From Okamejei kenojei (Eukaryota): DNA of 64,000 nt. The position numbers and the translations under genes are program-made. Of this stretch, positions 35,014 to 56,139 are shown in pieces. How positions within the stretch are numbered: position 1 is the stretch's first letter; the number at the start of each line of letters is the position of its first letter. Below the pieces are notes generated by a model. The model was not told the origin of the DNA, did not search any database, and was given only the letters and a program-made list of their open reading frames with translations. The DNA is taken from contig CM069165.1 in NCBI GenBank assembly GCA_035221665.1, positions 20,088,001 to 20,152,000 of the forward strand. Reading direction: 5' to 3'.

Positions 35014-35939
35014 ACACACATTTATTTTGACCTCAACTATCCTCCTCCTACCCCTGCATCTGCAATATGCTTGGTTTCTAACTTTTCCAACTCTGATGAG
35101 AGATCATTGATCTGAAACTGTAACTCTGTTCATCTATCCACATCATCTGCCTTAATATTTCCACTTTTCTGAGCTTTCATCTCTTTTAATAAGGTTGGTT
35201 GAGCTTCTCTTCCCTTCTCCGAGATGGCATTGTGAGATCGTTCACATGCATTTTGGTTAGGTTTAGTGTCTCATTTGAACGTTAGTGTCCCATTTCAATG
35301 TAATAGTTAAGATAACTTAATTTAATTATGAGCCCAGATTGTTTCATTATGTTGTTAATGATGTTATTCTTCAAAGATTGCAAAGTAACCAAAAATCTTT
35401 TCATTGAATGGTACAATCAATTAGTCTCCCATTCAACCTATTAGAAAGTTACCACTGAGTCTGCTCTCACCGTCCATTCAAGCAGAAGATTTCAGATTGA
35501 AATTATTCCTCAAGTATCGTTTCATTCTTTGAAGTCACCTGTTAATTATTTTGCTAATTGCTTCAAATATGGAGTTTTTGAGTGTCAAACATGTTGTCAG
35601 TGGAAACACCTGTTCTATTGAAACCTTTTGCAGTTTTGAACCTATGAATCCTTCCCCACCTGTAGGAGAACCATTCCTTATCTCAAATTCTCTTCACGTA
35701 ATTGGTCATTCATTTATTTGAAGCAAACTGTACCATTCTAGTAAAGATTCTGTTTATCCTCTCCAAAGTATTAATGCTTTTCCCAAAATCTGTGCAATAT
35801 CCCAAAATTGGATGCAATATCCTAATATTCTAACCTTCACAAATGTTTTTTTGTATCTGTTTCATGTTAGTGCTCAATAAATCACCAAACTTTGCTCCAT
35901 TCTCTTGCCCTTTCTCAATCAGTGAATATAAGTAACCAT

Positions 35940-53100: not shown

Positions 53101-53695
53101 TTGAGATGTGAAGCTTCAAAATGTTTCAGTGTGTTTTTTTCAACTCTTCAACCAAAATGTCATAAGACAAGTTAAATGCAGTAGACGATGTACAACAGGT
53201 AGACTGTACATTAGTAGATGGAGAGATAGGGGGAGGATTAGTCTGTTTATGTTACTTTCTGGGGATTAGGTAAGTCACTGTCTTGTTAAAACCATTTGTC
53301 TTTCTGGGGTGGTCCTGCATAATGCAGGCAGCAGCGAGTTGCTTGTCAGGACAAGCTGGATTAGAGGGAAGCAGACAATCCTACACACTCACTGTTGGCT
53401 TTCTGTGAGAGAAGGGCATGAAGATGGGACGACACAAAAAGGTGTTAAGCTCTCTTGCAGCAATTCTATAAACACAAAGCAAGAAAGGAACTAAGAAAGT
53501 GAACTTTGGAATTTTCATATCCCGAAGCCCCAACGATCGGACTTTGCATTGAAATAGCGCACAAAGACATTTAAAGGCATCCACCTAAATCCGTGCAATG
53601 TTTATGGAAATTTACTGCTTCAATCTAATAATGACTTGCACGAAATTTGCTCTTATGCCTAGCACTTCCATAGAGACCACTTATATACTGGCTGC

Positions 53696-53834
53696 GGGGT
53701 GGAAGATTGCAACCTTCACCGCATCCGCCCTGTTTCGACTAATGCAATCAACTCGACGTGCACAAACGGAAGATCAAATAGAACAAGTTGTCCAACAACT
53801 TTAGGCTGTGCACGCCACACAAAAGAAGACGAAG
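53696..53834 (+). mobile_element. Short non-autonomous retroelement with 5' HDV-like ribozyme fold (copy 2)
   Basis: Perfect 13-bp TSD atatactggctgc at 53683-53695 and 53835-53847; tail aagaagacgaag; same 5' end as 34876. Confidence 0.85.
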
Positions 53835-56139
53835 ATATACTGGCTGCCAATCTCAGATATGTACTGGAATGAATTTATAGCTTGTTTATAATATCTGGTT
53901 GTAAATTTGACTCTGATAGTCAGCTGATAAGACTTAAGGATCATTGAAACACAAGAAGGTAGTCACAGAATGCTGGAGTAACTCAGCGGGGCAGGCAGCA
54001 TCTCTGGATAGAAGGAATGGGTGACATATCGGGTCGAGACCCTTCTTCAGATCAGATCAGTCTTCCCACCTGAAGAAGGGACTCAAGTGAAACTTGCAGA
54101 CATTTCAAAGAAATTTGCCTTTGTGTTCATTTTTATAGCGTTGCTCCCAATCTCAGAGCCATGGCTGGTGTGCATTATACTTGCACACATTAGCAATAGG
54201 AATTCTATTTTTGAAATCTCCATCCCCCTACCTCTTCACTTTAGATCACATACGTTTTGTTTATTTCTCCAAATCTTTTACTCTTTGGTTCAGGGTCTAT
54301 TACTTTCTTAAACCCCCACGAATTTCTACATGAAAGAGCAGTGTATAAATGCAGAAGCAATATAGTTTCGTCGATGCAAACCATGAATTGAAACAGAAAG
54401 ATGGAAACACAAGAAACTGCAGATGGTGGAATCTTAAGCAAAACACAAATTATTGGAGGAATACTGCGGGTTTTCCTGATAAAGCATCATTTTCACTCTT
54501 GTAGTTTGCGAACCTCATTGTTATTAGAGTCTTCTTATAATATCACCGAGTTCCTCCAGCACTGTATTTAAAAACGGGAAGGTGCTGACAACAATCTGAA
54601 GTCTGTGGAGAGAGAGGATCAGAGAAAGTTCATGTTGATCTGATAAATGATCATCGACCTGAAGTATTAACCCAGTGGCTTTCCACAGATATCGCCTGAC
54701 CCGCTGAGTGCTCGCCTACTGATAAATCCATGTTTCTCTAAACGTTGACCATTTTCTTCCTTTCCTTTACAACATCATCACAGTCCACACTTACAACAGA
54801 ATCATATTTCTAAACTACTGGACTGAAAATAATGCTTTATTAGGAACAAATGTGTTTGAAAATATAGTGATAAAATCATCCACTGGCTGAGGGTAATGTT
54901 GGGAATAATGGTTTCATAACTCATCAATAGAGCATTACATAATCAGAGGTTTAAAAAAAATTAAAGGATATTAGTTACTGTTAATTTCTTGTCCCTGTGT
55001 GATGTCCCTCCCATGTAATGAGGGGCTGCAACCTCCGTACAAGATAATGGATGACCTACGGTACGATACCGACAGGAATGAATCAAAAGGATTCCACTGG
55101 TGTCATGAATCAAGGGCAAAGCACGTGTGGTATTCAATGTCACTAGAACTTGTAGATTGAATTAGTGCCTCGTATCCTTGACAGCCTTGTTGTTATTCTT
55201 TTTATTGTACCGAGAAGCATTTATATTTATTATCTGAGCTCGCTGCATGTTGGGTTTTTTTCCCTGTGGGATCATTCCACAGCCATTGGGAAGTATTTCT
55301 TTTTAATCCTTTCCCAGGATTTGGGTGATGCTGGTAAGGGCAAACTTATCAGCTGCTGCGGAGAAAGTGAGGAGGACTCTTACTGAACTATTCTATTGAA
55401 CAAAGCTGGTGAAATAGATAAGAGTGTTCATGGATCTGAAGAAATGCAGTTCCAAACAATTATGTTGCTTGTTGAATACTATTTTATCTTCGGGAACACA
55501 GCAGTGATAAATTGGGATGTACAAATGATGCACTAAACCTACAGCTTTTTTTTTCAGATTAAACACCTTTCATCTTCAACATAAACATAATCAACTCTGA
55601 TTCTCCATCGATGAATAAGTACTTCCACAATTTCTGCTTTTGTTTCAGAATTCAGATCTGCGTTACTCAGCTTTTACATTTGAGTTTTATTGTTGAATAA
55701 TTAATTCAGATATGGTGTAGGGAACATGCTCTAACTTGAGGGACCTGAGGGAGTAGTTCAGTGCAGTCAGAAAATCCATGGCTCATGGCCGGTTGAAGGA
55801 AATTCCTATCGCCCAAGGGTGAATAGAATTGTTCACTTGCCTCCTGCCCTATCAAACCTAATACCAAGTAGGGTAGAAGAAGTAGGTAGATGACGTACAC
55901 AGTTCTATTATTGATGCATTAACAATAAATATAATTGGGATAAAGCTTTGCTCTGCATGGTCATAATAAGTGCATGGAAGAGTCTTGAACACTGGTTACA
56001 CTCACCTCTCACACTTTGAGTTCTGTTGATGTCAATGGAAACAAATGTGTGAAGATGACCATGGCCCAAGGCTGATAGCCTCTCGCACATTTAGTGCTGG
56101 CAACCAACAAATAATCTCTCTCTCTCTGTATCTTTCAAG

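What the first reader, a model, noticed from the sequence alone, without database searches (positions are those of the whole stretch)
53696..53834. Second independent insertion of the HDV-ribozyme element with complementary lesions
Seen: a different, perfect 13-bp TSD, yet the same first nucleotide and identical spacing: P1 GGGGUGG/CCGCCCU, P2 GAUUGCA/UGCAAUC (7 Watson-Crick pairs, where copy 1 has a G-U at the varying site), catalytic-position C in CUAA (53739), but L3/P3' damaged (UUCACCG-CAU). Two unrelated insertions starting precisely at G1 is what self-cleavage predicts and random 5' truncation does not. The two copies together reconstruct an intact fold, while each alone is probably inactive (inference).
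Basis: partly seen in the sequence, partly recalled or inferred. Interest (0 to 1): 0.75.

Follow-up and report, generated by a model that had tools for sequence, protein, structure and literature searches.

The report
Ribozyme-headed mini-retrotransposon from a Vingi-like LINE
This is one damaged copy of a roughly 139-base jumping element, present in many thousands of copies, made of the front and back ends of a longer Vingi-like retrotransposon; its front end is a predicted minimal self-cutting RNA that likely frees each copy from host transcripts.

Summary
There is a perfect 13-bp TSD, the element starts at G1 of an HDV-type fold, the catalytic-position C is at 53739, and a private 4-base lesion damages L3/P3. 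Copy 1 lacks that C.

The 'two copies reconstruct the fold' point is moot. The family has 7,033 exact matches to the intact 30-nt core and about 19,000 copies by estimate. Of 30 unselected copies, 29 start at G1 and 17 pass a strict intactness test.

I found the parent: a 3.0-kb single-ORF Vingi-like LINE sharing the first ~75 and last ~38 bases. The element is therefore an internally deleted non-autonomous derivative, like R2 SIDEs and NARTc.

Five Vingi-like families in this genome begin at G1 of an HDV fold whose helices covary. Junctions show no cap-type extra G. Cleavage itself was not tested, and a fixed promoter start is not excluded.

Three points I did not find in print: ribozymes in Vingi-like elements; a 54-nt P4-less ribozyme in an animal genome; and family-specific complementarity between the post-ribozyme segment and the 3' tail (cognate pairing ranks 1 of 120, with windows chosen after a first inconclusive test).

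The parts
53683..53695 (+). left target-site duplication (13 bp)
   Evidence: identical to 53835-53847
53696..53834 (+). non-autonomous element, younger subfamily, full length
53696..53749 (+). predicted 54-nt P4-less HDV-like ribozyme: P1 53696-702/53725-731, P2 53705-711/53743-749, P3 53712-714/53722-724, L3 53715-721, P1.1 53732-733, 5-nt loop 53734-738, J4/2 53739-742
   Evidence: on intact copy L002 the top two Rfam hits are HDV families, both below gathering score
53720..53723 (+). private four-base lesion removing L3 G25 and two of three P3 pairs
   Evidence: absent from the other 29 loci
53739..53739 (+). catalytic-position cytosine (HDV C75 equivalent), intact in this copy
53696..53767 (+). 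segment homologous to the 5' end of the parent Vingi-like LINE (family E)
   Evidence: 89% over 72 nt to L344, 82% to L333
53757..53764 (+). 5' arm of the predicted end-to-end stem (from the LINE 5' UTR)
53785..53801 (+). junction hairpin (7-bp arms); the 5' arm is not in the parent's ends and is the reverse complement of the start of the tail segment
53795..53834 (+). segment homologous to the parent LINE's last codons, stop, 3' UTR and (GAA)n tail; includes the 3' stem arm 53807-53814
   Evidence: 91% over 35 nt to L349
53835..53847 (+). right target-site duplication
34876..35011 (+). copy 1, older subfamily; catalytic-position C changed to A; TSD 34864-34875 / 35014-35025 (11 of 12)

Best explanation
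The element is a non-coding derivative of a 3-kb Vingi-like LINE that keeps only the LINE's two ends; its first 54 bases are predicted to fold as a minimal HDV-type ribozyme that likely cuts the RNA out of host read-through transcripts at G1, after which a Vingi-like reverse transcriptase likely copies it into new sites. Shown: shared ends with the parent, TSDs of 9-15 bp, 5' boundary at G1, and covarying helices across five families. Inferred: cleavage, an uncapped 5'-OH end, trans-mobilisation by target-primed reverse transcription, and pairing of the post-ribozyme segment with the 3' tail. The window copy is likely inactive because of a mutation acquired at or after insertion; the lesion has no function.
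For: Family size: 7,541 exact tail 26-mers and 7,033 exact core 30-mers; overlap 38 of 99 gives about 18,500-19,600 copies. Boundary: 29 of 30 tail-selected copies start at position 1-2; 55 of 68 TSD-resolved copies abut G1 and 13 have 1-2 extra bases. Parent: L288, L331 and L333 (3,043 nt with TSD) carry the same head and tail around endonuclease and RT remains. Covariation: families A-E have different P1/P2 sequences that all pair; P3 and P1.1 covary in family B; all begin at G1; 0 descriptor hits in 1.9 Mb shuffled. No cap signature: only 2 of 13 extra-base junctions contain G, and G at -1 is 15 of 92 against 22% background; an untemplated G is associated with capped L1 RNA (PMC9341517). 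No tRNA head in 4 of 4 loci. Precedent: R2 SIDEs and NARTc.
Against: No cleavage assay and no RNA 5'-end data (one search holds contigs only). Rfam scores are below threshold: 21.8 of 50 bits, E 0.24; the window itself gives 0 hits. J4/2 reads CUAA in most copies and CAGA in family A, whereas the descriptor in PMC6326823 is C-R-R-A. P1.1 has one Watson-Crick pair. A G37-C44/U38-A43 mini-hairpin could compete (seen in the sequence). Only 17 of 30 copies pass the strict test, and 6 of 30 share a P3 mismatch at position 29, which suggests an imperfect master could amplify. Only 3 of 11 parent-LINE heads reach position 1-2. Nested-fold z-scores are not significant (0.30, -1.01, -1.65), but that tool ignores pseudoknots.
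Confidence: 0.8

Rival explanations
1. The head acts mainly as an internal Pol II promoter with a fixed start at +1 (as Pr77 does); the ribozyme fold is inherited from the LINE but no longer cleaves usefully in the P4-less form.
For: The L1Tc/NARTc first 77 nt are both promoter and ribozyme (abstract). Non-canonical J4/2 letters. A shared P3-mismatch variant in 6 of 30 copies.
Against: No extra-G cap mark. C44, A46 and A47 are kept in 29 of 30 copies, and subfamily changes in the head fall at positions 8, 32 (pair kept as G-U) and 45. The fold covaries across five families.
Confidence: 0.14
2. The youngest subfamily changed partner and was mobilised by another Vingi-like family (B, A or C) rather than by its parent E. 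This is compatible with the best explanation and concerns only the enzyme source.
For: Young copies diverge 2.8% (median, n=18) against 5.0% for E 5' ends (n=16) and 5.2% for old copies (n=12); family B is 3.4% and family C 0.3%. All families end in a similar CA(T/A)(A/T)CG-(AAG)n-type tail.
Against: The best E 3' ends diverge 2.2-5.5% (29 best of 1,287 candidates, biased low), overlapping the young subfamily. Samples are small and score-selected.
Confidence: 0.3
3. It is a conventional Pol III SINE with a small-RNA head, and the HDV fold is coincidence.
For: Short, high-copy element with a precise start and a LINE-derived tail.
Against: The head is 82-92% identical to the LINE's own 5' end; ARAGORN finds no tRNA in 4 of 4 loci; no Rfam small-RNA hit.
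Confidence: 0.03

Closest known systems
Bipartite non-autonomous Vingi elements (e.g. Vingi-1_EE internal-deletion derivatives; Kojima 2011 as cited in PMC5786205)
   Same: Only the 5' and 3' ends of a compact single-ORF APE-RT LINE without RNase H are kept.
   Different: [quoted passage not shown] Here five Vingi-like families carry the fold. Identity with a named Repbase family could not be checked.
R2 SIDEs of Drosophila (PMC3414825, abstract read)
   Same: A 5' HDV-like ribozyme joined to a LINE 3' end, spread by TPRT.
   Different: SIDEs are rDNA site-specific and described as rare; this family is dispersed, about 19,000 copies, with an APE-type partner and a 54-nt ribozyme.
NARTc / L1TcRz of Trypanosoma cruzi (Ingi clade; PMC3383444, abstract read)
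   Same: The ribozyme cleaves 5' of +1 of a LINE and of its non-autonomous derivative; Ingi is the sister clade of Vingi.
   Different: 77-nt element with shown promoter activity; here 54 nt, no P4, no promoter test, animal host.
Minimal (P4-less) HDV-like ribozymes, drz-Mtgn-1 and theta ribozymes (10.1101/2023.06.13.544163, passages read)
   Same: Nested double pseudoknot without P4; catalytic C first in J4/2.
   Different: Those lie in gut phages, often beside tRNAs, and the theta motif gave no reported hits in human, mouse or protist genomes. This one heads a retroposon in an animal genome and has a single-pair P1.1 (CPEB3-like, recalled).

Membership tests
HDV-like ribozyme | 7-bp P1 starting at G1 with a G-Y first pair, P2, 3-bp P3, nested order | tested here: met
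   Met in intact copies and in five LINE families with covariation; not met in the window copy (P3 1 of 3).
HDV-like ribozyme | L3 U...CG motif (reverse U-G wobble) and P1.1 | tested here: met
   U20 29 of 30, C24 30 of 30, G25 27 of 30, C22-G37 29 of 30; only one Watson-Crick P1.1 pair; G25 lost in the window copy.
HDV-like ribozyme | Catalytic C first in J4/2, descriptor C-R-R-A | tested here: inconclusive
   C 29 of 30 and terminal AA 29 of 30, but the second base is U in 19 of 30, G in 9, A in 1, against R in PMC6326823.
HDV-like ribozyme | Mg-dependent self-cleavage 5' of G1, lost on C-to-U change | not testable with these tools
   Needs an in vitro assay.
HDV-like ribozyme (Rfam) | Reaches the gathering score of an Rfam HDV family | tested here: not met
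   21.8 of 50 and 16 of 44 bits on L002; these models expect P4.
Bipartite non-autonomous LINE | Both ends derived from one autonomous LINE, no ORF, TSD and tail | tested here: met
Vingi clade (parent LINE) | Compact single ORF, APE endonuclease plus RT, no RNase H | tested here: met
   A 3,043-nt element matches 984-aa P0073 from its N- to near its C-terminus; relatives P0073 and P0002 have EN and RT and no RNase H, while control L181 has RNase H. Definition from PMC13708176. Genomic copies are decayed, so architecture was read through database relatives.
Vingi clade (parent LINE) | RT phylogeny as sister to Ingi, grouping with named Vingi elements | not testable with these tools
   No named Vingi or Ingi protein among the listed hits; the label rests on architecture and on a recalled N-terminal motif.
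Pol III (tRNA/5S/7SL) SINE | Small-RNA-derived head | tested here: not met

The most novel reading that the evidence does not exclude
Vingi-like RNAs close into a loop. After the ribozyme cuts, the segment just behind it base-pairs with the segment just before the 3' tail, using a different but matching sequence in each of five families. This end-to-end stem plus a P4-less ribozyme is the complete cis signal for mobilisation, which would explain why these LINEs yield two-ended mini-elements and would define a ~135-nt minimal template for Vingi-based gene writing.
Probability: 0.4. Interest if true: 0.78.

Novelty: new variant of a known kind. Interest (0 to 1): 0.55.

Why it matters
The single damaged copy is unimportant; the family is what matters. 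It offers a natural 54-nt P4-less HDV-type ribozyme at about 19,000 sites in an animal genome, with thousands of natural variants. It extends 5' ribozymes to Vingi-like LINEs, which a 2018 survey did not list and whose two-ended derivatives that paper left unexplained. It points to an end-to-end RNA stem as a testable cis signal. Vingi-1 is being engineered for gene insertion using both UTRs (PMC13708176), so a minimal ribozyme-plus-stem template has practical value. If active, intronic sense copies would also cut host pre-mRNAs.

Tried and rejected
Rfam at gathering threshold on the window: 0 hits.

Pattern searches for a LINE with a different flank beside the exact tail (101 hits, 30 examined) or the exact head (97 hits, 30 examined) returned deleted, inverted or truncated short copies and no parent. 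The parent was found instead through PF14529, a Vingi-like singleton (L192) and its distant relatives.

Metagenome contigs: 0 hits for head and tail patterns.

Public runs: 23 rows from 10 studies hold the element. Four were laid; all are contigs, and RNA status is mostly a guess. They show varied flanks before G1 but cannot show RNA ends, so they were not used as evidence. Whether this insertion has an empty allele, and whether the lesion appears in reads, remains open.

Nested-fold energies were uninformative.

End-pairing test: the first version (45-nt windows, single copies) was inconclusive, with only family C at p<0.05 and off-diagonal hits. My prediction of family D's tail from its head was met at 9 of 10 pairs, not 10. 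The next-24-nt control equalled the cognate value in family B.

Earlier scan findings: nothing relevant.

Ruminski 2011 and Kojima 2011 are not held and were not read; they, Repbase/Dfam and patents may already describe Vingi ribozymes.

Full report
Observation. The 139-nt segment 53696-53834 lies between identical 13-bp repeats. Numbered from G1, P1 (1-7/30-36) and P2 (10-16/48-54) pair fully, C44 is at 53739, P3 pairs 1 of 3 and G25 is lost. The damage is four adjacent substitutions at 25-28; the copy otherwise equals its subfamily majority except at polymorphic position 99. Copy 1 (34876-35011) has intact P3/L3 but C44 changed to A, and belongs to the older subfamily.

Family. In the 2.76-Gb genome a 26-nt tail pattern has 7,541 exact matches and a 30-nt intact-core pattern 7,033, with 0 in the reversed controls. 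On the first 24.6 Mb of contig C1, 38 of 99 core hits also had a tail hit, giving about 18,500-19,600 copies. This is rough: it assumes independence and extrapolates from one region. In the first 30 tail matches in genome order, 29 start at position 1-2 and one at 17; 17 of 30 pass a strict structure test. In 30 loci chosen by the 3' 70 nt, 28 reach positions 1-4 (this set includes the window copy). Among 92 distinct copies already selected for reaching the 5' end, 68 have a TSD of 9-15 bp. Of these, 55 abut G1, 12 have one extra base and 1 has two; the control gave 2 of 92.

Parent. Exact-flank searches found no LINE. An endonuclease family search returned one compact element among 50 loci (L192), and its endonuclease pulled out five families, A-E. 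Family E carries the short element's head and tail. L288 is an internally deleted copy with a 247-aa frame ending in the shared tail. L333 is 3,043 nt with a short TSD, and it matches 984-aa P0073 along most of its length. The window copy matches E over its first 72 nt (82-89%) and last 35-40 nt (85-91%). Relatives have EN and RT without RNase H, the architecture given for Vingi in PMC13708176 (passages). No named Vingi was available for a tree, so 'Vingi-like' rests on architecture and a recalled motif. The host is probably a cartilaginous fish, recalled from the flanking repeats and not tested.

Ribozyme evidence. On an intact copy the top two Rfam matches are HDV families, both below threshold. 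A descriptor finds the fold at the 5' end of all five families. Hits were 5 from 24 loci for A, 1 from 15 for B, 3 from 11 for C, 1 from 8 for D and 4 from 50 for E (two of the E hits are a nested short copy), with 12 from 30 short-element loci and 0 in 1.9 Mb of shuffled sequence. P1 and P2 differ between families yet pair, P3 and P1.1 change together in B, and the P4 region ranges from 40 nt down to 5 nt in E and the short element. Most A, B and C heads begin at or next to G1, but only 3 of 11 E heads reach position 1-2, which I cannot explain. Junctions lack an extra G (2 of 13 extra-base cases; G at -1 in 15 of 92, p=0.92), while T at -1 is enriched (44 of 92, p=1e-5). Untemplated G is linked to capped L1 RNA (PMC9341517, passages), so the pattern fits an uncapped end. 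The T may reflect non-templated A on the cDNA or target preference (inference). Against activity: J4/2 departs from C-R-R-A (PMC6326823, passages), 6 of 30 copies share a P3 mismatch, and nothing was assayed.

End-to-end stem. The short element's 3' domain folds as a stem joining LINE 5' UTR sequence to the tail. Testing the 24 nt after the ribozyme against the 22 nt at the tail, every family pairs best with its own tail. The cognate assignment ranks 1 of 120, with shuffle p of 0.016, 0.037, 0.001, 0.001 and 0.003 for A-E. Caveats: the windows were narrowed after an inconclusive 45-nt test; family D's head comes from one copy; C and D are related; the D prediction was met at 9 of 10 pairs; and the next-24-nt control matched the cognate energy in B and came near it in E.

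Mechanism. Likely: host read-through transcription, ribozyme cleavage at G1, recognition of the tail (perhaps with the stem) by a Vingi-like protein, TPRT from the (GAA)n end, and run-off at the 5'-OH end (0.8). Rivals are a promoter-defined start (0.14) and a Pol III SINE (0.03). A partner switch for the young subfamily (0.3) is compatible with the main reading.

Literature. R2 SIDEs (PMC3414825, abstract) and NARTc (PMC3383444, abstract) are the same kind of element. PMC5786205 (passages and section 23) names Vingi as a source of bipartite elements but not as ribozyme-bearing. PMC6765202 (passages) notes that some LINEs and SINEs use HDV-like ribozymes in diverse metazoans. Minimal P4-less forms are described from phages and metagenomes (bioRxiv 2023.06.13.544163, passages). 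I also read passages of PMC7761336 and PMC3391268. Searches showed, at listing level, no paper on Vingi ribozymes, this family or end pairing. Kojima 2011, Ruminski 2011, Repbase, Dfam and patents were not seen, and no supplements were read; any of these may bear on novelty.

Verdict. A real feature and a new variant of a known kind. The lesion story is minor; the family, the P4-less ribozyme and the possible end stem carry the interest (0.55).

Noticed in passing
L153, L166, L169, L170, L173 (around 1450-1530): Copies in which the ribozyme core between the two P2 arms is inverted relative to the rest of the element: 5 seen directly, and 2 more of the 97 hits show the same junction. Likely hairpin-mediated micro-inversion.
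   Followed up: partly
L268-L275, L279, L293 (family C): Very young Vingi-like family (median 0.3% divergence, n=10) with a canonical HDV fold including P4, GG P1.1 and CGAA; L272 is a ~1-kb internally deleted copy. Best candidate for a recently mobile element.
   Followed up: partly
L301-L324 (family E 5' ends): 8 of 11 parent-LINE heads lack the first few to about 15 bases, whereas 29 of 30 short elements reach G1; unexplained.
   Followed up: partly
L156:1440-1610: A second internal-deletion derivative of family E with a different breakpoint (longer 5' UTR part joined directly to the tail).
   Followed up: no
L276-L278, L282, L299: Family D copies share the same upstream flank on several contigs and occur in close repeats, suggesting amplification inside a larger repeat or satellite.
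   Followed up: no
window 53691-53698 versus 53719-53726: The four-base lesion lies in a stretch matching the reverse complement of the TSD/G1 junction at 7 of 8 bases; possibly a templated (quasi-palindrome) change, but chance is not excluded.
   Followed up: no
window 9185-63617 (e.g. 53960-54054): Abundant unrelated ~95-150 nt repeat family, at least 14 copies in one orientation plus inverted ones; several ribozyme elements elsewhere inserted into it (L005, L007, L047, L086).
   Followed up: no
L338: A young short element inserted near the 5' end of a family E LINE copy, consistent with the young subfamily being later than that LINE copy.
   Followed up: no
L288:2423-3016 (-): Decayed Tc1-type transposase frame downstream of the parent copy (identity recalled from sequence, not searched).
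   Followed up: no
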